From positions 167,152,001 through 167,216,000 of the forward strand of contig OX597817.1 of NCBI GenBank assembly GCA_951406725.2: a stretch of DNA of 64,000 nt. The letters run 5' to 3'. The position numbers and the translations under genes were made by a program. The notes under the pieces are model-generated. The model did no database searches. It was not told the DNA's origin and saw only the letters and a program-made list of their open reading frames with translations. This DNA is from Octopus vulgaris. Lineage: Eukaryota. This document shows positions 1 to 50,889 of this stretch, piece by piece. Each line of letters begins with the position of its first letter. Position 1 is the stretch's first letter.

Positions 1-348
<348 letters not shown>

Positions 349-2405: not shown

Positions 2406-2825
2406 ATTGTTGTATTTCGGAATGGTCATTTTGCCAGTTTAGCCAATAAAAACACACGCACTATATATTTGGTGTTACTTTGCTTCAGCGTTATTCATTT
2501 TTTACATTCATCTTAATCTTATTTCGGGCAGTTCTTTCGTCACACTTCTGTGACCTCATCAGTGGTCCTTTGCTTTCTTCTTTCTTATTTGTGTGTCTCT
2601 CCTTACTAAAATGGCTGACCGTTATTAAGGAGACACACACAAATAAGAAAGAAGAAAGCAAAGGACCACTGATGAGGTCACAGAAGTGTGACGAAAGAAC
2701 TGACCGAAATAAGATTAAGATGAATGTAAAAAATGAATAACGCTGAAGCAAAGTAACACCAAATATATAGTGCGTATGTTTTTATTGGTTAAACTGGCAA
2801 AATGACAATTCCGAAATACAACAAT
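2406..2825. repeat. 200-bp-arm palindrome with 20-nt spacer, carrying CTGATGA-stem-GAAA
   Basis: 2406-2605 vs 2626-2825 near-perfect inverted repeat. Confidence 0.95.
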
Positions 2826-3439: not shown

Positions 3440-4240
3440 CTGGGGTCGATGTAATCGACTTAATACCTATGTCTGTCCTTGTTTGTCCTCTCTGTGTTTA
3501 GCCCCTTGTGGGTAGTAAAGAAATAGGTATTTCGTCTGTCATTACGTTCTGAGTTCAAATTCCGCCGAGATGACTTTACCTTTCATCCTTTCGGGGTCGA
3601 TAAATTAAGTACCAGTTACGCACTGGGGTCGATGTAATCGACTTAATACCTATGTCTGTCCTTGTTTGTCCCCTCTGTGTTTAGCCCCTTGTGGGTAGTA
3701 AAGAAATAGGTATTTCGTCTGTCAATACGTTCTGAGTTCAAATTCCGCCGAGATTGACTTTACCTTTCATCCTTTCGAGGTCGATAAATTAAGTACCAGT
3801 TACGCACTGGGGTCGATGTAATCGACTTAATACCTATGTCTGTCCTTGTTTGTCCCCTCTGTGTTTAGCCCCTTGTGGGTAATAAAGAAATAGGTATTTC
3901 GTCTGTCATTACGTTCTGAGTTCAAATTCCGCCGAGATGACTTTACCTTTCATCCTTTCGGGGTCGATAAATTAAGTACCAGTTACGAACTGGGGTCGAT
4001 GTAATCGACTTAATACCTATGTCTGTCCTTGTTTGTCCCCTCTGTGTTTAGCCCCTTGTGGGTAATAAAGAAATAGGTATTTCGTCTGTCATTACGTTCT
4101 GAGTTCAAATTCCGCCGAGGTGACTTTGCCTTTTATCCTTTCGGGGTTGATAAATTAAGTGCCAGTTGGGTACTGGGATGGATCTAATCGACTAGCCCCC
4201 TCCCCCAAAATTTCGGACCTTGTGCCTAGAGTAGAAAAGA
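3440..4240 (+). mobile_element. Head-to-tail multimer (~183-bp unit, ~4 copies) of tRNA-derived SINE family A
   Basis: Repeated unit with GAGTTCAAATTCC B-box and CCTTTCATCCTTTCGGGGTCGATAAA core (resembles the Meta-type SINE domain). Confidence 0.85.
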
Positions 4241-21411: not shown

Positions 21412-21736
21412 GATCAAAATCTATTAAAAGTACTTTTTTTATTTTGTAAATTTCCTGTCTCAAATTTCAAATGTCATCTAACGTCTCATAAAAACCGCCC
21501 AGTAAACAGAAAATTTATGATAAATTCAACTCTTTTCTAAGTCATGAGACTTCCCGTCAGTAAATTTTCCTATTCTTTTACCAGTTTTAAACTTATAAGC
21601 TCAATTTGACATTCATATCTTCCGCTAAGAGTAGCTAATGAAGAATTAATTTAGAAAACTGTCGATTTGCTAAGCTAATTTTAAAGTTTATCTGAATTCC
21701 TCAAGTCAGAAATATCCATCATCTTTTGATGCTTAC

Positions 21737-21794
21737 CTTGGACTTTTGTAATGGATATACCCGCTATCAACAGCAGTGCAACTGGTAACTTCAT
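21737..21794 (-). CDS. GH18 chitinase, first coding exon (signal peptide MKLPVALLLIAGISITKVQ-G)
   Basis: ATG at 21794-21792 preceded by a tttcag acceptor; hydrophobic N-terminus; donor G|gtaagc, phase 1, joins in frame to the 18178 exon. Confidence 0.85.
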
Positions 21795-21843
21795 ACTGAA
21801 ACTGAAATACATAAAAAATATAGAAGAAATATTACAACAGTTA

Positions 21844-22228
21844 TCTCTCTCTATATAAACGGCAGTTTGTCTGTGTGTGTTTCTGTGAGTCTGTTTGGTT
21901 GTACCCTCACCCTGACCACGGCTTTCAACCGATTCTGATGAAACTTGACACACACATAGCCCAATGTCATAATTCAAAACTAATGCAGCGAAAATTTTGA
22001 AAAGTTCCCCCAGTTCTGAAACAAATCGATAAATTCGACATGTGGTCGAGAATTAGAAACACAAACCACAGACTGTCTAGGGGACGCAACTCGACCTTTT
22101 TTAACTAAAAAAAAAATTTACCATCATTTTTTTTCCCGTTTCTTTGCTATTTTTTGGCTATAACTCTCTAAAAATGCTTTATAGTTATTTCCCTTACAAA
22201 CCTGAGCAACGCCGGGCGATACTGCTAG
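21844..22228 (+). mobile_element. Non-autonomous Helitron, ~50 bp upstream of the chitinase ATG
   Basis: A|TC...hairpin-CTAG|T. Confidence 0.88.
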
Positions 22229-22392
22229 TGAGCAATAAAAGTGAAACTAAAATATTATTAAAACAAATGACAAACACAGAAGTAGTGAACAAGTAAAATA
22301 TTACCAGCAACCATTTGCATGCGAACGGAAAATCAGAAAAGCTCGACAATGGGAAGCACACGATTTGAACGAAAACCAGAAAATGCGCAGAT

Positions 22393-22560
22393 AGGCGCAG
22401 GAGTGGCTGTGTGGTAAGTAGCTTGCTAACCAACCACATGGTTCCGGGTTCAGTCCCACTGCGTGGCATCTTGGGCAAGTGTTTTCTGCTATAGCCCCGG
22501 GCCGACCAATGACTTGTGAGTGGTTTTGGGAGACTGAAACTGATATAATCCTGTCGTATA

Positions 22561-22623
<63 letters not shown>

Positions 22624-22840
22624 CTGTCTGTGTTTGTTCCCCTAGCATTGCTTGACAACCGATGCTGGTGTGTTTACGTCTCCGTCACTTAGCGGTTCGG
22701 CAAAAGAAGCCGATAGAATAAGTACTGGGCTTACAAAGAATAAGTCCTGGGGTCGATTTGCTCGACTAAAGGCGGTGCTCCAGCATGGCCGCAGTCAAAT
22801 GACTGAAACAAGTAAAAGAGTAAAAGAGTAAAAAAAGAGT
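22393..22840 (+). mobile_element. tRNA-derived SINE family B with internal (TA)/(TG) tract; other copies 19915-20288, 26490-26965, 43165-43585, 50680-51120, 58936-59362, 60650-61045, 63705-64000
   Basis: TGGCTGTGTGG A-box, GGGTTCAGTCCC B-box, (AAGAGTA)n tail, many near-identical copies. Confidence 0.88.
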
Positions 22841-23153
22841 ATATGAAATTTACACGTCGCTTCTTCTCCATAACCAGACCGATCCATTTTCGACCGTTTT
22901 GTAACTTGCGATGAAAAGTGGATTCGGTACAACAATAATAATATTTAAAAAAAAAAACGTTCTTCGCAGTGGTTGCACCAAAATGAAGCACCGAAAACCT
23001 TCCCTAAACCCGAGCTCTTCAAAATAAAAAGGTCATGGTGACTGTTCAGCTGATGCTAGTTACCTGACAGGGGAATGATGCGGATGAACAGAGGGACGGC
23101 ACTTATCTACTTTTTCCAGTTCACGGACGCCGAGCAGGGCTTACCTTGTTTAA

Positions 23154-23374
23154 CCCTTTAGCATTCAGATTAATCTGTCAAATGTAAAGCCTGTTTAATT
23201 ACATTGTTTTAAATTAATTGTACAGCATCTTGTAACTCTGAGATTTTGACGATGTCCCTGTTTATTTTTAGAATGACTTTGTAGGGTAAGTGTGAGAGGT
23301 CAGAGCTGGCTGGTTTGAGCATAAAAATATGAAGACAATTTTGGCCTGATATGGCCGGTTTAAACACTAAAGGG
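23154..23374. mobile_element. piggyBac-type MITE
   Basis: TTAA|CCCTTTAG...CTAAAGGG|TTAA. Confidence 0.8.
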
Positions 23375-23644
23375 TTAACCCACCATCCTTCCTTATAAGC
23401 TGCAACCTCATGAACTTTAGCGTATGCCTAATCCCCATAGACGTATTTCTATTATTTTGTATTATTGCTGTCAAAATAAACTGACTGTGACTATGTCCTG
23501 TGTAATTCTAACAATATTTTGTTATACTATCATGAAATTCATCACCATATATTTCAACAATGCGGAAATTTTATTCACTAAAGTAAGTACCATTACAATC
23601 AACACACTTTTGCCAACGGGTTACAACCGGCAGGCCATGCTACT

Positions 23645-23685
23645 CCAGACTGATGATGAGCAAAAACTCAGAAACTAGTCTCTGG
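23645..23685 (+). ncRNA. Canonical minimal type I hammerhead ribozyme
   Basis: CCAGA CUGAUGA UGAG-CAAAAA-CUCA GAAACUAGUC UCUGG: perfect core, stems I/II, palindromic ACUAGU stem III, GUC triplet. Confidence 0.9.
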
Positions 23686-24061
23686 TTACAGGCTTAGCTG
23701 GATGGAGGTACTTGTCTCCCCCTTGTAAACATGAGGACACGGAAAATGTGTCAAGGCTGACAGAAACCGTTGATGCTTCCTAGGGCTAAATAGCAGAGGT
23801 GTGATCTCCTTCATGGGACTGTCACATTTAGTTGACAGTATACAACTACATATATATATGCCACGGGCTTCTTTCAGTTTCGGTCTGCCAAATCCGTTAA
23901 CAAGGCTTTGGTCGGTCTTATAGTAGAAGACACTTGTCCAAGGTCCCATGTGGTTAGTAAGCAAGCTACTTACCACACAGCAGCTCCTGCGCCTTTGTCC
24001 AAAATTTAAATTTTTGTTGTAATAATTACTGCTCTATTCTTTAGATTGTGCTTCTTTTGTG

Positions 24062-24095
<34 letters not shown>

Positions 24096-24400
24096 ATTAC
24101 CGTGATCACCGTGACCGACCAGGCAATCAGATGTTGCTACACATCGCTGGTCACAATGCGCTTCGCATTGTTTTAGCCTTCAAATGACGCCATCCTCCTG
24201 GCTAAGCGAGCAGGCCAACAGAAGAAAGAGTGAGAGAAAGTTGTGGCGAAAGAGTACAGCAGGGATCCCCACCACCCCCTGCCGGAGCCTCGTGGAGCTT
24301 TTAGGTGTTTTCGCTTAATAAACACTCACAACGCCCGGTCTGGGAATCGAAACCGCGATACTACGACCGCGTGTCCGCTGCCCTAACCACTAGGCCATTG

Positions 24401-24469
<69 letters not shown>

Positions 24470-24475
<6 letters not shown>

Positions 24476-25226
24476 TCAATATAGGGTGCCAAAAAAAATT
24501 TTGTAGAATTCTTTTGCCACCAGCGGCCTAGTAGGAAAAAAATTAAAATAGTCAAAGACCATTTTTAAGTTCAACATCAACAATAAAGGAACGGCCATAA
24601 TAGGCCATTCACCCACTAGAAATAACAGCCAAAGCTTCAACCGCAAATAAAAGTTAATTCAGTAAACCAGGAGAAAATTTAAAAAACATTTACCCTGTAA
24701 TTTCTTATACGATATACCGTTTCATCTGCTGATTAATGGTAAACTAACCTGATTAAATTAAATCAAGCCAATCTTCCACAGGCCCTCAGATTCTTCAGTA
24801 AGAAATAGCCCAAGACGGAACAGATATTTTCACGAGGCATTTCCGACGTTGCCAAGTTAATATCTGACCTAAAATTTTCAAAACGTCGCACTCGCGCCAA
24901 ATTTATCGGCAGCAAATAAATATTAGCCGTCGATTCCATTACGGAATTAACCAGAAAATTCATAATTAATCAATATAGGGTGGCAAAAAAAAATTTTGTA
25001 GAATTCTTTTGCCACCAGCGGCCTAGTAGGAAGATTGGCTTGATTTAATTTAATCAGGTTAGTTTACCATTAATCAGCAGATGAAACGGTATATCGTATA
25101 AGAAATTACAGGGTAAATGTTTTTTAAATTTTCTCCTGGTTTACTGAATTAACTTTTATTTGCGGTTGAAGCTTTGGCTGTTATTTCTAGTGGGTGAATG
25201 GCCTATTATGGCCGTTCCTTTATTGT

Positions 25227-25229
<3 letters not shown>
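24470..25229 (-). mobile_element. Penelope pseudo-LTR-like element: partial direct repeat + inverted arm + hammerhead, between (TA)n tracts
   Basis: ~24470-24535 repeated at ~24965-25031; 24576-24777 inverted vs ~25029-25229. Confidence 0.75.
24701..24805 (-). ncRNA. Type I hammerhead ribozyme with long stem II insertion
   Basis: UUUCUUA CUGAAGA AUCUG...(~58 nt)...CAGAU GAAACGG-UAUA-UCGUA UAAGAAA: 7-bp stem I, GUA triplet. Confidence 0.85.
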
Positions 25230-25277
<48 letters not shown>

Positions 25278-25723
25278 CACATACATACATACATTCATAC
25301 ATGTATGTGTATAGACCACACACACACACATTCACTGTTCATTTCAAATCTGCAGACGATTCAGTGTTCATAGCACATAGATTGATATTGCAAATGTATA
25401 GGAATTAGATAGTGCTTTAAAAATATGCTTATACATGTCTGTTCACATAGTACACAAGCACTTGTGTGTTTGTGTGTGTGGGGGGTGTATAATTTAAATA
25501 AGTTGACCTGGGAACAGGTTAACACAACTTTAATGTCACGGTTGTATAGGCAGTGAAAAATTGTGTAATAACTGCGGCTTTAAGGAATATAGATAGTCAC
25601 GAACTCAGTTCGAACATTGCATTGTAAATGTCCGTTTTTCTACCCTTTCAGGATCTTTATATGTGTATGTGTGTGTGTGTGCGTGTGTGTGTGTGTGCGT
25701 GCGTCCGTGAGTGTGTGTATATA

Positions 25724-25763
<40 letters not shown>

Positions 25764-25767
<4 letters not shown>

Positions 25768-26028
25768 AATGTAATATTTGACAGTTATTCGGTAGCCATG
25801 ATAAAACTCCGAGTTTCAGATGTCGGAGCGGAAATCCACGCCGCCATCTCTTCAGTTATCCAGCCATCGGTAAAAAAGAGATGGCGGCGTGGATTTCTGC
25901 CCCGACATCCGAAACTCGGAGTTTTATCATGGCTACCGAATAATTGTCACATATTACATTTACAGATAAATTCCTGTTTACATAATATTGAGGTCTCTTT
26001 CATTCTTTTGTTGTCTTACCATTTCTAT

Positions 26029-26030
<2 letters not shown>
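25764..26030. repeat. Hammerhead-bearing fold-back element between (TA)n tracts
   Basis: 25764-25852 inverted vs 25876-25964; homologous to the 13801-14430 element. Confidence 0.85.
25800..25860 (-). ncRNA. Hammerhead-like motif (same family as 13831/14264)
   Basis: GAUAA CUGAAGA GAUG...CAUC U GAAACUC-G-GAGUU UUAUC. Confidence 0.65.
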
Positions 26031-26071
<41 letters not shown>

Positions 26072-26697
26072 ATTAATAATTAGTAGGGGATTTCTCTAAA
26101 TGTTTGGCTGTTTGCTCACAGTTAGGTATTCAAAATAGGTTATTCACTGGTTAGTATATAAATTCAGTAATAATTCTCATATGATAAGAATTCAGAGATA
26201 AATATTCTGTTCTATTATTCTATATATGCCTTTAACCATACCGGTTTCCTGGATTATTTCATATAAATAGTAATAATAATAATAATAATAATAATGATGA
26301 TGATGATGGTGATGATTATCATTATTACGTATAATAAGGATTATTATGAAGTGGTATTAGCATTACCTTTAATTCCTTTTGATATATATACTACAGCCTC
26401 AAATAGACCTACATTTGTTTCTCCAGCATCGATTAGTAATCGCTGCAATTGCAACCTTACTATAACACTGGTGTAGTTATATATATTCCTTTATTCTTTT
26501 ATCTGTTTCAGTCATTTTACTGCAGCCATGCTGGAGTGCCGCCTTTTTGTCGAACAAATCGACCCCAGGACTTATTCTTTGTAAGCCTAGTACTTATTCT
26601 ATCGGTCTCTCTTTGCCGAAACCGCTAAGTTTCGGGGACGTAAACACACCAACATGGGTTTACAAACGATGGTCGGGGGACAAACACAGACACACAA

Positions 26698-26802
<105 letters not shown>

Positions 26803-27372
26803 CCCGACGGGCGTCTTTCAGTTTCTGTCGACCAAATCCTCTCACAAGCATTTGGCCGGCTCGAAGCAATAGTATATGACACTTGCCCAAGGTGCCACGC
26901 AGTAGGAGTGAACCCGGAACCATGTCGTTAGTAAGCAAGCTACTAACCACTCAGCCACTCTTGCATATCTAAGACGTTTTCATAAACTTCGAGGCGGTGT
27001 AAAATCAGTTTGTTTGTTTTTTCTTTCGCGAGGAGAAAATGGATTTCGACGTTAACAGAGTTATAAATAAAAGCGTGTAATAATAGAAAATATGGATGAA
27101 CACATGACAGGCGTTCTGCCGTTGGACCAAAGCAATTCCTTCGAATTTCTCTATCCATTTTAGAAATTTTATTTAAATACAGTTAATGTCATGAGTACTT
27201 TCAGAAACTTCGAGAGAACGTGAAATAATTCTTTTTATTGGAACGACAAATCCCAACGCAAAAAAACACACACACACACACACACACACACTGATACATA
27301 TACTCACGCTCACAAAAACACTCACACTGTACATCCACACACACATACACGCATACACATATTTATATACTT

Positions 27373-27374
27373 GA

Positions 27375-27410
<36 letters not shown>

Positions 27411-28000
27411 AGGGAGGGGAGGAAAGAAAGAAAGAAAGAAAAGAAAAGAAAAGAAAGGAAGAAAAAATGAAAGAAACAAAGAGAGAGAGAGAAAGAAAAA
27501 AAAGAAAGAAAGAAAAAGAAAGAAAGAAGTGAGGGGAGGGAAAAGGAGAGAAAGAAAAAAAGAAAAACAGAAAAAGAAAGAAAGAAAGAAAGAATGGAGA
27601 GAAGGAAGGAAATAAAGAAAGAAAGAAACAAAAGAAAAGAAAGGAAGAAAAAATGAAAGAAACAAAGAGAGAGAGAGAGAGAGAGAGAAAGAAAAAAAGA
27701 AAGAAACAAAGGAAAGAAAGAAAGAATGAAAGAAAGAAAGAAAGAAAGAAAGGAAGGAAGGAAGGAAGGAAGGAAGGAAGGAAGGAAGGAAGGGGAGGGA
27801 GAAAGGAAAGGAAAGAAAGAAAGAAGGAAAGAAAGAAGGAAAGAAAGAAAGAAAGAAAGAAAGAAAGGAAGGAAGGAAGGAAGGAAGGAAGAAGTGAGGG
27901 GAGGGAGAAAGGAAAGGAAAGAAAGAAAGAAAGAAAAAAAGAAAGAAGGAAAGAAAGAAAGAAAAAGAAAGAAAGAAAGAAAGAAAACAGGAAAACAAAG
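27373..28000. repeat. Polypurine (GAAA/GGAA/GA) low-complexity tract
   Basis: Direct sequence. Confidence 0.95.
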
Positions 28001-28441
28001 AGAAAAGTGGTGCAGGTGTACCTTAGACAAATTTATTGTCACGCTTTTGTAATATTAGAGATAGCTTCAGGTCAAATGTACGGGAAAAGGTATTAAACTT
28101 TTCAAATAATATCAGATACAGGTGAAATGATAAGTGCAGAGTAAATCAAGGTAAGTGAACCAGAAACAGACTTATATCCTCTTATATTTCTTCCAATAAC
28201 AATGAGTAATATGTTTATTTAGGTCACCTCTTTCTTACAGATTCTTCATATAGAGGCCCCATCAATTTTCCGGCAATTTGCATTCCGGCATTTTGATAAT
28301 CCGTAAATAGGTATGAGTAAGGCTTCTCTATACAATGGTGTCTGGTTTTGGCATAGAGCAAGACATTTTGAAAGAAGCGGGCTAGCGACCCAGTACTTGA
28401 CTGCCAGCGATCCAGTACTTGACTGGTACTTTGTTTCGTCG

Positions 28442-29038
28442 GCGGCGAGCTGGCAGAAACGTTAGCACGCCGGGCGAAATGCTTAGCGGTATTTCGTCTG
28501 CCGTTACGTTCTGAGTTCAAATTCCGCCGAGGTCGACTTTGCCTTTCATCCTTTCGGGGTCGATAAATTAAGTACCAGTTACGTACTGGGTCGATATAAT
28601 CGACCTAATACCTATGTCTGTCCATGTTTGTCCCCTCTGTGTTTGGCCCCTTGTGGGTAATAAAGAAATAGGTATTTCGTCTGCCGTTACGTTCTGAATT
28701 CAAATTCCGCCGAGGTCGACTTAGCCTTTCATCCTTTCGGGGTCGATAAATTAAGTACCAGTTAAGCACTGGGGTCGATATAATCGACTTAATACCTATG
28801 TCTGTCCATGTTTGTCCCCTCTGTGTTTGGCCCCTTGTGGGTAATAAAGAAATAGGTATTTCGTCTGTCGCTACGTTGTGAGTTCAAATTCCGCCGAGGT
28901 CGACTTTGCCTTTCATCCTTTCGGGGTCGATAAATTAGGTACCAGTTACGCACTGGGGTCGATGTAATCGACTTAATACCTATGTCTGTCCTTGTTTGTC
29001 CCCTCTATGTTTAGCCCCTTGTGGGTAATAAAGAAATA
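28442..29038 (+). mobile_element. SINE family A trimer flanked by one 17-bp TSD
   Basis: GGTACTTTGTTTCGTCG at 28425-28441 and 29039-29055. Confidence 0.88.
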
Positions 29039-29191
29039 GGTACTTTGTTTCGTCGACCTTCGAGAGATGAAAGGCAAAGCTAACCTCTGCAAGATTTGAA
29101 ATCAGAACGTGAAGAAGCGGAACAAGTAGTGTCTTATTTTCTTTTTGTGATTTTTCTTTTTTAGGCACAAACTCAACAGTTTTATAGAGAA

Positions 29192-30308: not shown

Positions 30309-30345
<37 letters not shown>

Positions 30346-30346
30346 T

Positions 30347-30725
30347 TATATTAAATTAGAGACAAAACCACTATTAGGTAAATCAAACAATGAAATATTT
30401 AAGCCAATACATATGATTAATTTATATTATTTAAATATATAACAAAATTATTAAAAAAATATAATTAACATCACACTACGATCGTTTCATGCCTGCTAAC
30501 ATCTTCAAATTTTTGAGTCGCAGTCATTCATCAGGTGGTTTAAATAGACTGCGACTCAAAAATTTGAAGATGTTAGCAGGCATGAAACGATCATAGTGTG
30601 ATATTAATTATATTTTTTTAATAATTTTGTTATATATTTAAATAATATAAATTAATCTTATGTATTGGCTTAAGTTTTTCATTGTTTGATTTGCCTAATA
30701 GTGGTTTTGTCTCTAATTTAATATA
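30347..30725. repeat. ~180-bp-arm fold-back element with hammerhead, between (TA)n tracts
   Basis: 30347-30525 inverted vs 30547-30725. Confidence 0.9.
30474..30537 (-). ncRNA. Type I hammerhead ribozyme
   Basis: CAC CUGAUGA AUGaCUGC...GCAGgCAU GAAACGAUCGUA GUG: palindromic ACGAUCGU stem III, GUA triplet. Confidence 0.8.
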
Positions 30726-30809
30726 ATATAATATTTTACTATAAAATTGGATTCAATCCTAAATCTGATTTTTCCCTGTAAGTTTGGATTTATTCCCTAA
30801 TATTTATTA

Positions 30810-34844: not shown

Positions 34845-35795
34845 TCTACAACAGGCACAATGCCTGAAATTTTTGAGGAGAGGGGGGATATTCGATTACA
34901 TCGACCCCTGTGCGTAACTGGTACTTATTTCGTCGAGCCCAAAAGAATGAAAGGCAAAGTCGACCTCGGCGGAATTTGAACTCAGATTTGAGCGGCAGAC
35001 GAAATATCTATTTCTTTACTACCCACAAGGGGCTAAACACAGAGGGGACAAACAAGGACAGACAAACGGATTAAGTCGATTGTATCGACCCCAGTGCGTA
35101 ACTGCTACTTAATTTATCGACCCCGAAAGGATGAAAGGCAAAGTCGACCTCGGCGGAATTTGAACTCACAACGTAACGGCAGACGAAATACCTATTTCTT
35201 TATTGCCCACAAGGGGCTAAACACAGAGGGGACAAACAAGGACAGACAAACGGATTAAGTCCGATTGTATCGACCCCAGTGCGTAACTGGTACTTAATTT
35301 ATCGACCCCGAAAGGATGAAAGGCAAAGTCGACCTCGGCGGAATTTGAACTCACAACGTAACGGCAGACGAAATACCTATTTCTTTATTGCCCACAAGGG
35401 GCTAAACACAGAGGGGACAAACAAGGACAGACAAACGGATTAAGTCCGATTGTATCGACCCCAGTGCGTAACTGGTACTTAATTTATCGACCCCGAAAGG
35501 ATGAAAGGCAAAGTCGACCTCGGCGGAATTTGAACTCACAACGTAACGGCAGACGAAATACCTATTTCTTTATTGCCCACAAGGGGCTAAACACAGAGGG
35601 GACAAACAAGGACAGACAAACGGATTAAGTCCGATTGTATCGACCCCAGTGCGTAACTGGTACTTAATTTATCGACTCCGAAAGGATGAAAGGCAAAGTC
35701 GACCTCGGCGGAATTTGAACTCAGAACGTGGCGGCAGACGAAATACGGTTACGCATTTCGCCCGGCGTGCTAACGTTTCTGCCAGCTCGCCGCCT
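34845..35795 (-). mobile_element. SINE family A multimer (185-bp unit, ~5 copies)
   Basis: Near-identical units at 35191, 35376, 35561. Confidence 0.88.
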
Positions 35796-38829: not shown

Positions 38830-41099
38830 TGGAAATGAAATTTAGTGAAGGCATGAATGTCACAGAATCCTGTGTTCTGCTTCTATTATGTTTATATTAT
38901 TTAATCAAGTAAATAAATAAAAAGATTTCAAAGAATTTTGGTTCTGCTTCTTTAAAAAATATTCTGGGGCCGTTTACTTTACTTTTGTCATAAATGAAAT
39001 TTAGTGAAGGCATGAATGTCAAGAAATATGTTCTGAATGATTTTATTATTGAGTCAAGTGTTAAATTATAATACAAAAAGAAAAGAATGTCTCTCCCTAG
39101 ACACAACAGAATATGGGGCCGTTTACTTTACTTTTGAACTCATATAAAGAATCTTGCAAACCAAATCCAAAATCGAAATATTCTAGGTTTAATTTATTTA
39201 TCTTATAACTTACTCTTAGTGAAGGCATGAATGTCACAAAGAATCCTATTTGTATTACACTCCACCTTCCAAAAAGTATTTTGTATCTTGCTTAGGTTTT
39301 TTCTTTTTTTCTGCTTTCTTTTTTTTCACAAAAGTCTCTCAGTGGAGTCATGAATTTCAAGGAGTTTTATTTCTGCTCCTTTAAAAAATATTCTGGGGCC
39401 GTTTACTTTACTTTTGTCATAAATGAAATTTAGTGAAGGCATGAATGTCACAGAATCCTATGTTCTGCTTCTATTATGATTATATTATTCAATCAAGTAA
39501 ATAAATAAAAAGATTTCAAAGAATTTTGGTTCTGCTCCTTTAAAAAATATTCTGGGGCCGTTTACTTTACTTTTGTCATAAATGAAATTTAGTGAAGGCA
39601 TGAATGTCACAGAATCCTATGTTCTGCTTCTATTATGTTTATATTATTTAATCAAGTAAATAAATAAAAAGATTTCAAAGAATTTTGTTTCTGCTCCTTT
39701 AAAAAATATTCTGGGGCCGTTTACTTTACTTTTGTCATAAATGAAATTTAGTGAAGGCATGAATGTCACAGAATCCTATGTTCTGCTTCTATTATGTTTA
39801 TATTATTTAATCAAGTAAATAAATAAAAAGATTTCAAAGAATTTTGTTTCTGCTCCTTTAAAAAATATTCTGGGGCCGTTTACTTTACTTTTGTCATAAA
39901 TGAAATTTAGTGAAGGCATGAATGTCACAGAATCCTATGTTCTGCTTCTATTATGATTATATTATTTAATCAAGTAAATAAATAAAAAGATTTCAAAGAA
40001 TTTTGTTTCTGCTCCTTTAAAAAATATTCTGGGGCCGTTTACTTTACTTTTGTCATAAATGAAATTTAGTGAAGGCATGAATGTCACAGAATCCTATGTT
40101 CTGCTTCTATTATGTTTATATTATTCAATCAAGTAAATAAATAAAAAGATTTCAAAGAATTTTGGTTCTGCTTCTTTAAAAAATATTCTGGGACCGTTTA
40201 CTTTACTTTTGTCATAAATGAAATTTAGTGAAGGCATGAATGTCACAGAATCCTATGTTCTGCTTCTATTATGATTATATTGTTCAATCAAGTAAATAAA
40301 TAAAAAGATTTCAAAGAATTTTGTTTCTGCTTCTTTAAAAAATATTCTGGGACCGTTTACTTTACTTTTGTCATAAATGAAATTTAGTGAAGGCATGAAT
40401 GTCACAGAATCCTATGTTCTGCTTCTATTATGATTATATTGTTCAATCAAGTAAATAAATAAAAAGATTTCAAAGAATTTTGTTTCTGCTTCTTTAAAAA
40501 ATATTCTGGGACCGTTTACTTTGCTTTTGTCATAAATGAAATTTAGTGAAGGCATGAATGTCACAGAATCCTATGTTCTGCTTCTATTATGATTATATTA
40601 TTCAATCAAGTAAATAAATAAAAAGATTTCAAAGAATTTTGGTTCTGCTCCTTTAAAAAATATTCTGGGGCCGTTTACTTTACTTTTGTCATAAATGAAA
40701 TTTAGTGAAGGCATGAATGTCACAGAATCCTATGTTCTGCTTCTATTATGTTTATATTATTTAATCAAGTAAATAAATAAAAAGATTTCAAAGAATTTTG
40801 TTTCTGCTCCTTTAAAAAATATTCTGGGGCCGTTTACTTTACTTTTGTCATAAATGAAATTTAGTGAAGGCATGAATGTCACAGAATCCTATGTTCTGCT
40901 TCTATTATGATTATATTATTCAATCAAGTAAATAAATAAAAAGATTTCAAAGAATTTTGTTTCTGCTCCTTTAAAAACTATTCTGGGGCCGTTTACTTTA
41001 CTTTTGTCATAAATGAAATTTAGTGAAGGCATGAATGTCACAGAATCCTATGTTCTGCTTCTATTATGATTATATTATTCAATCAAGTAAATAAATAAA
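38830..41099. repeat. 159-bp tandem satellite (~11 homogeneous units plus degenerate left flank)
   Basis: TTCTGGGGCC recurs at 39391, 39550, 39709 and onward. Confidence 0.95.
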
Positions 41100-48054: not shown

Positions 48055-50889
48055 CCATGAGTTAAATATATAAAATAAGACTAAGAAGAAAATACAATGA
48101 AACTCAAATTCCTGTTTTTCTGAAGAATTGCAAGACCTTTTGAAATCACACATTTCGTGCCAACTACACTAAATTGAACAGTTAAGCAGCATGTGCAATG
48201 ATTGGTCGTTGTAAACAACAGCAAAGGTTAGTTGTTTGAATAAACTCGCTTATGCACTGCATTACCGAACTTCCGCCCCACCACATCCGCTTTTGTTATC
48301 ACCCGTGCCGACGCCAACTCTTCCATCAACGCCAGCAACGCATTCATTACCACCAACGCCATATGTATTCTTTCCTGCTCTAGGCACAAGGCCCGAAATT
48401 TTATGGGAGGGACGCCAGTCGATTAGATAGACCCCAGCATGCAACTGGTGCTTATTTTATGGACCCCGAAAGGATGAAAGGCAAAGTCGACCTCGGCGGA
48501 ATTTGAATTCAGAACGTTAAGACAGACGAAATACCTATTTCTTTACTACCTACAAGGGGCTAAACATAGAGGGGACAAACAAGGACAGACATAGGTATTA
48601 AGTCGATTACATCGACACCAGTGCGTAACTGGTACTTAATTTATCGACCCCGGAAGGATGAAAGGCAAAGTCGACCTCAGCGGAATTTGAACTCAGAACG
48701 TAGCGGCAGACGAAATGCCGCTAAGCATTTCGCTCAGCATGCCAACGTCACAAATGTGTTGCGAAATAACTCTGCCTCCTCTATCACCGCTAGGGCTACC
48801 ATTTCCATCACCCCCAACATCATTTCTGTCACACCACCAGCACGACTGCCATCACCATCATCATCACTATCACCACAACCATCAAAACCACTATCTACTC
48901 TATCACTGCCAGCGTCACCTCCGATGCCACCTCCATCTCCACCTGCCCCTCATCCATCACCATCATCATCTTATCCGTCATCACCAATACCACCTACAAT
49001 GATTTCAAATTTTGGCACAAGGCCAGCAATTTCGGAACCGGGGGTAAGTTAGTTTCTTCCATTAAAAAAGTGCACTACGTCCCTCTGTCCCCGCCGGTGC
49101 CACCACCAACAACAATCCCCAATACCGCCCCTGTTACCAGCAGCGCTACCATCTTCATCACCTCCAACACCTCCATCACCCCTAACATTACCTCTGTCAC
49201 CACCAGCGCCACCAACTCCATCACTCCCAACATCACCTCTATCACCACCTCTGCCACCGCCTCTAACACCCCAAACTTCCGCCACCCACATCCGCTTTTG
49301 TTATCACCTGCGCCGACGCCAACTCTTCCATCAACGCCAGCGACGCATTCATCACCCCCAACGCCACATGTATTTTTTTCTGCTCTAGGCACGAGGCCCG
49401 AAATTTTTGTGGAGGGACGCACAGTCGAGTACATCGACCCCAGTATGCGACTGGTACTTAATCTATCGACCCCGAAAGGATGAAAGGCAAAAGTCGACCT
49501 CGGCAGAATTTGAGCTCAGAACCTTAAGACAGACGAAATACCTATTTCTTTACTACCCACAAGGGGCTAAACACAGAGAGGACAAACAAATGGATTAAGT
49601 CGATTATATTGACCCCAGTGCATAACTGGTACTTATTTAATCGGCCCCGAAAGGAAGAAAGGCAAAGTCGACCTCGGTGGAATTTGAACCTAGAACGTAG
49701 CAGCAGACAAAATACCTATTTCTTTATTACCCACAAGGGGCTAAACACAGAGAGAACAAACAAGGACAGACAAACGGATTAAGTCGATTATATTGACCCC
49801 AGTGCATAACTGGTACTTATTTAATCGGCCCCGAAAGGAAGAAAGGTAAAGTGGACCTCGGTGACATACTCTGTCGCCACCAGGGCCACTACCACCACCT
49901 CCATCACCCCAACAGCGTTTATATCACTCGCCAGCGCCACCACCACCTCCATCACCCCAACACTGCCTCTGACTCCACCAGCGTCGCTGTTCCCCATCAC
50001 CCCACCCCGTACCACCTCCACCGCCACCATCAACACCACCACCACCACCCCACCACCACCACCCCTACCACAACTAACCTTTGCTGAGTGGTTGGTTGGT
50101 TAGAAGAATAATACTTCCAATAAAGAGCCGGCCTTGTCACTCTCTGTGTCACGCTGAATATCCCCGAGAACTGCGTTAAGGGTACACGTGTCTGTGGAGT
50201 GCTCAGCCACTTACACGTTAATTTCACGAGCAGGCTGTTCCGTTGATTCGGATCAACCGGAACCCTCGTCGTCGCAACCGACGGAGTGCTTCCCACTTCC
50301 AATAAAATTCAGCCGGTGTCATTTCATTGTCAGAAAAATAGTGAAAAACATTGATTTCGGAGGAAGGATCAAGCAAAGGAGGGGAGAAGAGGATGGGGAG
50401 TGACGAGAAGAATAAGGAAGAAGTGGTCGAGGAACGGTAGTGGCGGCGGCGGCGGCGACAGTGGCAATGACGGTGAGGGGGGGAAGGGTGTGGTTGAGGT
50501 GATGATTGTAGTGGTGGCGGTGGTGGAGAAGGGAGCGTATGGGAAATTAACTGACAACCGACCAAAATTGTCATACTCACCTATACATACACACAAACAC
50601 AAAGGCACACACACACACACACACACTACGAATACACATATGTGCAAGCATACACATACATTCACACATGCACATATACTCTTTTACTCTTTTACTCTTT
50701 TACGTGTTTCAGTCATTTGACTGCGGCCATGCTGGAGCACCACCTTTAGTCAAGCAAATCGACCCCGGGACTTATTCTTTGTAAACCCAGTACTTATTCT
50801 ATCGGTCTCTTTTGCCGAACCGCTAAGTGACGGGGACGTAAACACACCAGCATCGGTTGCCAAGCAATGCTAGGGGGACAAACACAAAC

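What the first reader, a model, noticed from the sequence alone, without database searches (positions are those of the whole stretch)
23645..23685. Textbook 41-nt minimal hammerhead 1.9 kb upstream of the chitinase ATG
CCAGA CUGAUGA UGAG/CUCA GAAACUAGUC UCUGG has every conserved core nucleotide, a 5-bp stem I and a self-complementary ACUAGU stem III that is most stable as a dimer. Cleavage is predicted after C23680. It is the best candidate for an active ribozyme, and it is not in a palindrome.
Basis: partly seen in the sequence, partly recalled or inferred. Interest (0 to 1): 0.75.

Follow-up and report, generated by a model that had tools for sequence, protein, structure and literature searches.

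The report
Stranded copy of a hammerhead retrozyme
The hammerhead motif is real, but it sits in a shortened, solitary copy of a 350-base protein-free repeat found at hundreds of places in this genome, a known kind of jumping RNA that was likely pasted in by Penelope-type enzymes, and because it lies on the strand opposite the chitinase and is predicted to cut only as a pair, it likely does nothing at this spot.

Summary
The motif at 23645-23685 is real (0 of 300 shuffles give one), but it is not a free-standing minimal hammerhead. It is the core of an extended type I hammerhead (23630-23703; Rfam HH9 full-length match, E 2.7e-7, below the family cut-off). It lies in a 220-bp, 5'-truncated copy (23630-23849) of a 350-bp non-coding repeat: 97 exact core matches genome-wide, roughly 650-1,500 copies estimated. 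Copies end at two fixed points, often beside TA or TC microsatellites. 58 of 124 insertions are back-to-back palindromes, and their arms share source variants. This is the footprint of Penelope-like (PLE) reverse transcription on a circular or multimeric RNA, so the family is a non-LTR retrozyme. Helix III is one base pair plus a palindromic loop, as in salamander hammerheads, and the monomer is predicted to misfold, so cleavage likely needs a dimer. This copy is single, 7% decayed and antisense to the chitinase, so it cannot cut that mRNA. Its 'textbook' U-A pair is probably CpG decay from the family's C-A mismatch. The scan has already reported sister families (360 and 485 bp) with this footprint elsewhere in the genome. 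New member of a known kind; interest 0.3.

The parts
23630..23849 (+). 220-bp 5'-truncated copy of the 350-bp retrozyme unit (about 50 nt before to 169 nt after the cleavage site); single, no inverted arm
   Evidence: BLAST to the tandem copy L004, 92% identity, only match in the window; genome hits; differs from the family majority at 16 of 220 sites
23630..23703 (+). Extended type I hammerhead: distal helix I (23633-36 with 23691-94), internal loop with UAC on the 5' strand (23641-43), proximal helix I, core, helix II, helix III
   Evidence: Rfam HH9 RF02275 positions 1-77/77, 33.3 bits, E 2.7e-7, below gathering 52; pair counts across copies
23645..23685 (+). Hammerhead core as reported: helix I 5 bp (6 bp in most copies), CUGAUGA, helix II (U-A plus 3 bp; C-A mismatch plus 3 bp in most copies), 6-nt loop II, GAAA, helix III, C17
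   Evidence: sequence; alignment; column counts
23674..23679 (+). Palindromic helix III: one A-U pair capped by a CUAG tetraloop; 6-bp duplex in a dimer
   Evidence: monomer pair probability 0.000, self-duplex -4.8 kcal/mol
23680..23681 (+). Predicted self-cleavage site after C17 (GUC)
   Evidence: position in the HH9 alignment; cleavage itself untested
23841..23859 (+). 3' end of the insertion at family end-point A (AC-rich stretch, unit +161..180), running into (AT)5
   Evidence: 77 of 182 arm ends fall at A, 40 of them beside a TA or TC run; sequence
21737..21801 (-). First coding exon of the GH18 chitinase (ATG at 21794), preceded by a splice acceptor; transcribed opposite to the hammerhead strand; not part of the element
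   Evidence: sequence; ORF list; Pfam GH18 on downstream exons; one contig of a run only guessed to be RNA matches 21736-21801 and continues 128 letters elsewhere

Best explanation
This hammerhead lies in a lone, 5'-shortened copy of a 350-base non-coding repeat family, a retrozyme whose RNA is predicted to cut itself as a dimer and was likely copied into the genome by a Penelope-like reverse transcriptase, so this copy is likely inert. Steps: (1) inferred: read-through transcription of tandem copies gives multimeric RNA. (2) predicted: two hammerheads pair through the palindromic helix III and cut after C17, releasing a 350-nt monomer that is ligated into a rod-like circle, in which the single hammerhead is folded shut. 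(3) shown as a genomic pattern, inferred as mechanism: a PLE RT/GIY-YIG protein nicks AT-rich or microsatellite DNA and starts reverse transcription at one of two internal points of the RNA (about +170 and +228 from the cut), often from both DNA strands, runs across the cleavage site and stops at random. (4) shown: the window copy is such a product, ending at the +170 point before (AT)5. It has since decayed, has no partner, and is antisense to the chitinase.
For: 97 exact core matches genome-wide against 0 for the reversed control. Unit length 350 from a tandem copy; up to about 2.6 units in L257. Longest ATG-ORF in the unit 14 aa on the ribozyme strand and 48 aa opposite; GC 0.41. Real 350-nt stretches fold as circles far better than shuffles, z -4.0 to -8.2 in 5 of 5. 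Two pairs in the long stem around the hammerhead show linked compensatory changes: C-G/U-A 46:21 against 11:6 discordant, A-U/G-C 65:8 against 4:5. Core positions differ less than base-matched positions in copies picked without the core, 12 observed against 22.4 expected, P 0.012. 150 of 182 arm ends fall at two points; 58 of 124 insertions are head-to-head and 0 tail-to-tail, with 35 A+B, 3 B+B and 0 A+A. 28 of 124 have an arm longer than one unit, and 46 of 74 5' ends lie upstream of the cut. Arms or passes of one insertion agree at non-CpG variant sites (82% and 88% against 54% and 64% in controls) but not at CpGs. Intact RT plus GIY-YIG ORFs of 781 aa exist in this genome. PLE features (5' truncation, inverted copy, microsatellite bias, internal start in an AC-rich stem-loop, both strands extended) are described in PMC8557442 and PMC11167929.
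Against: No cleavage or circular RNA was shown. No autonomous PLE shares DNA with the unit: BLAST against 40 GIY-YIG loci gave nothing at E 1, so the partner enzyme is not identified. 5' ends do not pile up at the cut site (2 of 10 hits start at +1 to +4, both ambiguous by microhomology). Only 2 insertions end there (L049/L203, L200), which fits uncleaved templates as well as circles. A third stem pair shows no covariation (P 1.0) and another is paired in only 40% of copies. Copies are related, so the covariation P values overstate independence. Three other copies gave no Rfam hammerhead match. No long array that could be the source was found; only the best 40 candidates per DNA search were scored. 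Arm ends were sampled by patterns that force 3' ends beyond 0 or +136. Shared variants between arms could also come from a homogeneous multimer or from conversion between arms.
Confidence: 0.82

Rival explanations
1. The repeat is the terminal repeat (pLTR) of an autonomous or deleted Penelope-like element, and the copies are 5'-truncated ends of that element, not products of an independent small circle.
For: Insertion scars are those of PLEs. Li et al. (10.64898/2026.07.22.740005) report retrozymes homologous to PLE pLTRs in Xenopus. PLE ORFs with their own hammerheads are present.
Against: In long copies the DNA upstream of the hammerhead is the unit itself, head-to-tail (L004, L016, L177, L257), never an ORF. 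No homology to 40 GIY-YIG loci. Architecture is canonical (6-bp helix I, 6-nt loop II), not the PLE minimal type of PMC4209133.
Confidence: 0.08
2. The hammerhead is a vestige: with a C-A mismatch at the base of helix II and a one-pair helix III it no longer cuts, and the family spread from uncleaved tandem transcripts.
For: C10.1-A11.1 in 110 of 156 segments; monomer misfold 0.95-0.99; no pile-up of ends at the cut. In PMC11167929 hammerhead mutants did not affect insertion in vitro; in Li et al. 8 of 9 tested dimers did not cleave.
Against: Core is less variable than expected. Helix III is an exact palindrome and the double fold is strongly favoured. One palindromic insertion has both outer ends at C17 (L049). 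A U-U mismatch at the same position is tolerated in axolotl Amex2 (PMC7229834) and in examples in PMC3088659.
Confidence: 0.07
3. This particular copy was co-opted as a regulatory ribozyme near the chitinase, for example cutting an antisense transcript in its 5' region.
For: It carries three substitutions that move it towards the HH9 model (U10.1, loop II CAAAAA, UAC on the 3' strand of loop 1; family frequencies 0.20, 0.04, 0.02) and is the only one of 4 copies tested to match HH9.
Against: It has 16 differences in 220 nt, six of them G-to-A, and has lost the sixth pair of helix I. C-to-U at 10.1 behaves like the other CpGs (CG 95, TG 40, CA 16, TA 1) and arises after insertion. It is on the wrong strand to cut chitinase RNA and has no partner for a dimer; the active monomer fold costs 10.9 kcal/mol.
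Confidence: 0.03

Closest known systems
Metazoan non-LTR retrozymes (Cervera and de la Pena 2020, PMC7229834; mussel 350-390 bp, axolotl 330/350 bp; Li et al. 2026, 10.64898/2026.07.22.740005)
   Same: 350-bp unit, one type I hammerhead per unit, GC below 50%, no ORF, highly self-paired predicted circle, partial tandems and many monomers, PLEs in the same genome.
   Different: Mostly dispersed, truncated and palindromic insertions (longest found about 2.6 units), about 4% decayed per site. Circular RNA and cleavage untested here.
Axolotl HHR_Amex1 and newt satellite hammerhead (PMC7229834, section 15)
   Same: Helix III is one base pair capped by a palindromic tetraloop; dimers needed for efficient cleavage.
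   Different: Here in an invertebrate-type genome, where PMC7761336 says most type I hammerheads cleave as monomers. It also has a mismatch at the base of helix II (C-A), recalling Amex2 (U-U), so it combines both weaknesses.
Rfam Hammerhead_HH9 (RF02275)
   Same: Whole model aligns to the window copy: distal helix I, UAC in loop 1, CAAAAA loop II, core.
   Different: 33.3 bits against gathering 52; helix III reduced; three other copies did not match. HH9 as conserved amniote intronic ribozymes is recalled, not checked.
Minimal hammerheads of Penelope-like elements (PMC4209133)
   Same: Palindromic helix III region, dimer-type, PLE-style insertions.
   Different: No extra nucleotide plus G10.1-C11.1, no long helix II, helix I not short; not attached to a PLE ORF in any copy examined.

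Membership tests
Type I hammerhead ribozyme | Core C3 U4 G5 A6 N7 G8 A9, G12 A13 A14, A15.1-U16.1, H17 | tested here: met
   sequence; HH9 alignment; 25 of 44 copies picked without the core are intact
Type I hammerhead ribozyme | Helix I open, helices II and III closed | tested here: met
   helix III is only one pair as a monomer
Type I hammerhead ribozyme | G10.1-C11.1 at the base of helix II (highly conserved, exceptions published) | tested here: not met
   U-A in the window copy, C-A in 110 of 156 segments; U-U exceptions in PMC3088659 and PMC7229834
Type I hammerhead ribozyme | Loop 1 / loop 2 elements for the tertiary contact | tested here: inconclusive
   window copy aligns to HH9 at these columns; most copies differ at one loop II and one loop 1 base and 3 of 3 others gave no match
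Type I hammerhead ribozyme | Site-specific self-cleavage | not testable with these tools
   only folding energies and two insertions ending at the cut
Rfam HH9 (RF02275) | Score at or above gathering 52 bits | tested here: not met
   33.3 bits; no gathering-level match in the window
PLE minimal hammerhead | Extra nucleotide after A9, long helix II, short helix I with ill-defined loop 1 | tested here: not met
   3-4 bp helix II, 5-6 bp helix I with extended stem against PMC4209133
PLE minimal hammerhead | Located in the terminal repeat of an RT/GIY-YIG element | tested here: not met
   no DNA match of the unit to 40 GIY-YIG loci; search not exhaustive
Non-LTR retrozyme | 150-450 bp unit with one type I hammerhead, GC below 50%, non-coding | tested here: met
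   350-351 bp, GC 0.41, longest ORF 14 aa sense
Non-LTR retrozyme | Tandem copies with consecutive hammerheads | tested here: met
   family level: L004, L016, L177, L200, L257; the window copy itself is single
Non-LTR retrozyme | Highly self-paired predicted circular RNA | tested here: met
   z -4.0 to -8.2 in 5 of 5 stretches; two compensatory pairs
Non-LTR retrozyme | Abundant linear and circular RNA in tissues | not testable with these tools
   only assembled contigs of runs guessed to be RNA were offered
PLE-mobilised insertion | 5' truncation, adjacent inverted copy, microsatellite or AT-rich target, two internal start points | tested here: met
   against PMC8557442 and PMC11167929
PLE-mobilised insertion | Identified partner element | tested here: inconclusive
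   intact RT/GIY-YIG families exist but share no DNA with the unit

The most novel reading that the evidence does not exclude
The family records a specific mechanism: one Penelope-type enzyme pair holds a single 350-nt RNA circle and starts from both cut DNA strands at two different fixed points 58 nt apart (35 A+B, 0 A+A among 58 palindromic insertions; arms share source variants), while the ribozyme is locked to dimer-only cutting by a one-pair helix III, a C-A mismatch and a built-in misfold. That would give a testable, protein-free substrate for how PLEs make their inverted and tandem insertions, and an amphibian-style dimer hammerhead in an invertebrate.
Probability: 0.5. Interest if true: 0.5.

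Novelty: new member of a known kind. Interest (0 to 1): 0.3.

Why it matters
The finding as given is ordinary: a dead copy of a mobile repeat that happens to lie near a chitinase on the other strand. The family behind it adds one more case to animal retrozymes and offers genomic evidence on a step that is mostly inferred in print, namely mobilisation by Penelope-like enzymes through two internal start points and priming from both DNA strands. It is older and more dispersed than the young arrays this scan noted elsewhere in the genome, which suggests that this route ran repeatedly. It also warns that the most 'textbook' copy of a decayed repeat can owe its look to CpG decay.

Tried and rejected
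Rfam at gathering level on the window: 0 matches; at E 10 on 1.3 kb: no hammerhead family; only the 111-bp scan gave HH9. Search for an autonomous partner: no BLAST match of the unit to 40 GIY-YIG loci. Test for ends at the cleavage site: of 16 hits, 1 true end, 9 substitutions, 2 sharing a deletion, 4 unrelated; of 10 hits, 8 substitutions and 2 ambiguous starts; not an enrichment. A looser core pattern found 124 matches; the 100 listed showed no second family with a different helix II. Expression: no RNA holder listed; contigs of four runs only guessed to be RNA cover the unit but cannot show strand, ends, level or circles, so nothing is concluded. The upstream 5' exon of the chitinase was not located: a donor scan gave 23 sites and no convincing one, so 'inside intron 1' remains likely, not shown. 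No target-site duplication was evident at the window copy. C/D snoRNA matches (SNORD109A, SNORD44, SNORD98) rest on the UGAUGA word, far below their cut-offs, and were rejected. Literature searches for octopus or cephalopod with hammerhead or retrozyme returned no description of this family. The supplement of PMC7229834 could not be read, one file of PMC4209133 was not searched, and preprint supplements are closed; any of them may list it.

Full report
Observation. The 41-nt motif is at the stated coordinates on the plus strand. A loose core pattern alone is not above chance in this window (8 matches, mean 3.75), but a descriptor that requires paired helices I and II finds only this site and none in 300 of 300 shuffles. 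C23680 is C17 of a GUC triplet. The chitinase ATG is at 21794 on the minus strand, and two downstream exons match Pfam GH18 below the curated cut-off. The hammerhead is therefore antisense to the gene, and the minus strand of 21801-28500 holds no hammerhead core. One contig from a run only guessed to be RNA matches exactly 21736-21801 and goes on for 128 letters elsewhere, so the ATG exon is likely spliced to an upstream exon. I could not place that exon, so the copy lies either in a 5' intron or upstream of the gene.

It is an extended, not a minimal, hammerhead. Window 23630-23703 aligns to all 77 positions of Rfam HH9 (33.3 bits, E 2.7e-7, gathering 52), including the distal part of helix I, UAC in loop 1 and the six-base loop II. 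This is the canonical metazoan type I layout of PMC4209133 (first two of four parts read): 6-bp helix I, 4-bp helix II, short palindromic helix III. It is not the PLE minimal type. Three other copies gave no hammerhead match. The base of helix II is not canonical: C-A in 110 and U-A in 39 of 156 segments. That position is a CpG and varies like the three other CpGs of the unit (CG 95, TG 40, CA 16, TA 1), so the pair that makes this copy look textbook is probably decay. PMC3088659 (passages).1-11.1 among the most conserved pairs and notes U-U exceptions.

It belongs to a repeat family. The flank search gave 61 matches among 40 scored candidates, those outside the window itself covering the part from about 23624 onward at 82-97% identity. 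An exact 33-letter core pattern matches 97 places against 0 for the control, and a pattern 100 nt downstream matches 88. Cross-checking the two samples suggests about 650 copies with the hammerhead (7 of 47) and about 1,560 with the downstream part (4 of 71), both very rough. Tandem copies give a unit of 350-351 bp, GC 0.41, with no ORF beyond 14 aa on the ribozyme strand. The longest array found has about 2.6 units (L257). The window holds a single 220-bp piece, 23630-23849, which differs from the family majority at 16 sites.

The RNA is structured and was under selection. Five real 350-nt stretches folded as circles at z -4.0 to -8.2 against 60 shuffles each, with the hammerhead at the tip of a long stem. 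Two stem pairs switch in concert between copies (46 C-G and 21 U-A against 17 discordant; 65 A-U and 8 G-C against 9). A third pair does not covary, and another is paired in only 40%. Related copies are not independent, so this is two events, not a statistic. In copies chosen by the downstream pattern the core shows 12 differences against 22.4 expected from base-matched sites (P 0.012), and 25 of 44 are intact.

Predicted switch. As a monomer, core C3 pairs with helix III bases at probability 0.95-0.99 and the active fold costs 7.9-10.9 kcal/mol in 5 of 5 contexts. In the natural tandem L004 the double hammerhead costs 5.8 against 22.3 for two single ones. These energies ignore tertiary contacts. 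The one-pair helix III with a palindromic tetraloop is what PMC7229834 (sections 14 and 15, passages) describes for axolotl Amex1, which cleaves poorly alone and well as a dimer. PMC7761336 (passages) says most invertebrate type I hammerheads work as monomers.

How it moved. I mapped 60 of the 97 core matches and 70 loci of the 88 downstream matches; after removing duplicates, 124 insertions with 182 arm ends. 77 ends fall at about +170 from the cut (an AC-rich stretch), 73 at about +228 and 32 elsewhere; sampling forces ends beyond 0 or +136, which does not create two peaks. 40 of 77 and 22 of 73 are followed by TA or TC runs, against 5 of 32. 58 insertions have two outward-pointing arms and none point inward; 35 use one point each, 3 use the second twice and none use the first twice. 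28 have an arm longer than one unit, and 46 of 74 5' ends (not deduplicated) lie upstream of the cut, so the template was circular or multimeric. In 155 insertions, arms or passes of the same insertion agree at non-CpG variant sites (210 of 256 and 151 of 172, against 54% and 64% in controls) but not at CpGs. They were copied from one source sequence and decayed afterwards. This test and the 'twin-primed' reading were prompted by earlier notes on sister families. Truncation, inverted copies and microsatellite bias are PLE features (PMC8557442, passages). Extension of both strands and two internal starts, one in an AC-rich stem-loop, were shown in vitro for an anole PLE (PMC11167929, main text). 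Intact 781-aa RT plus GIY-YIG ORFs are present here, but none of 40 such loci shares DNA with the unit, so the partner is inferred. The window copy ends at +169 before (AT)5, with no inverted arm.

Against my reading. Cleavage and circles are untested. Ends do not accumulate at the cut: one palindromic insertion has both outer ends there and one more ends there. Li et al. (first three of five parts read) found 8 of 9 Xenopus dimers inactive in vitro, and PMC11167929 found the hammerhead dispensable for insertion. The window copy has three changes towards the HH9 model, which leaves a small opening for co-option, but it also has six G-to-A changes in all, a broken sixth pair in helix I, and the wrong strand.

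Comparison and novelty. It works like, and meets every feature testable here of, an animal non-LTR retrozyme; it is not an HH9 member by score and not a PLE minimal hammerhead. Searches for octopus or cephalopod with hammerhead or retrozyme found no description; unread supplements may hold one. That the genome is a cephalopod's is recalled from its repeats and from the wording of earlier notes, not tested. The scan has reported 360- and 485-bp families with the same footprint; none matched this sequence. Verdict: new member of a known kind, interest 0.3; the copy is most likely inert.

Noticed in passing
window 2522-2709: Inverted pair of a different hammerhead-like core with an extra G after A9 and a 6-bp helix II, the layout of PLE minimal hammerheads; helix I and III partners were not evident.
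   Followed up: partly
L111-L114 and L116, 3' untranslated part: PLE family with many intact 781-aa RT plus GIY-YIG ORFs and an upstream ORF; near its 3' end a hammerhead-like motif with the U3-A8 core variant and a palindromic helix III, ending in (TA)n (read by eye).
   Followed up: partly
L120:2266 (-), L124:4210 (+): A second PLE family with a complete hammerhead core and a different six-base palindromic helix III.
   Followed up: no
L049 / L203 (G000:C3:116938181-116938287): Small palindromic insertion whose two outer ends both stop at C17, as if primed on the 3' end of a cleaved RNA.
   Followed up: partly
L207 and L210: Two loci on different contigs share the same 8-base deletion over C17 and the 3' strand of helix I, suggesting that a non-cleavable variant was itself copied.
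   Followed up: no
L178, L179, L180, L190: Four copies with identical flanks and ends, so part of a larger duplicated segment or host repeat.
   Followed up: no
window 22850-23045: Broken fragment resembling a mariner transposase (label recalled from the motifs, not tested).
   Followed up: no
window 24466-25230: Nested inverted duplication of about 250-300 bp, seen by eye, of the kind PLE-type insertions leave; similar short palindromic blocks at 25770-25960 and 30340-30780.
   Followed up: no
window 39354-41099: Young tandem array of eleven 159-bp units at 98% identity.
   Followed up: no
window 3440-4193, 28488-29042, 34893-35746, 49450-49863: Tandem arrays of a 183-185 bp dispersed repeat.
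   Followed up: no
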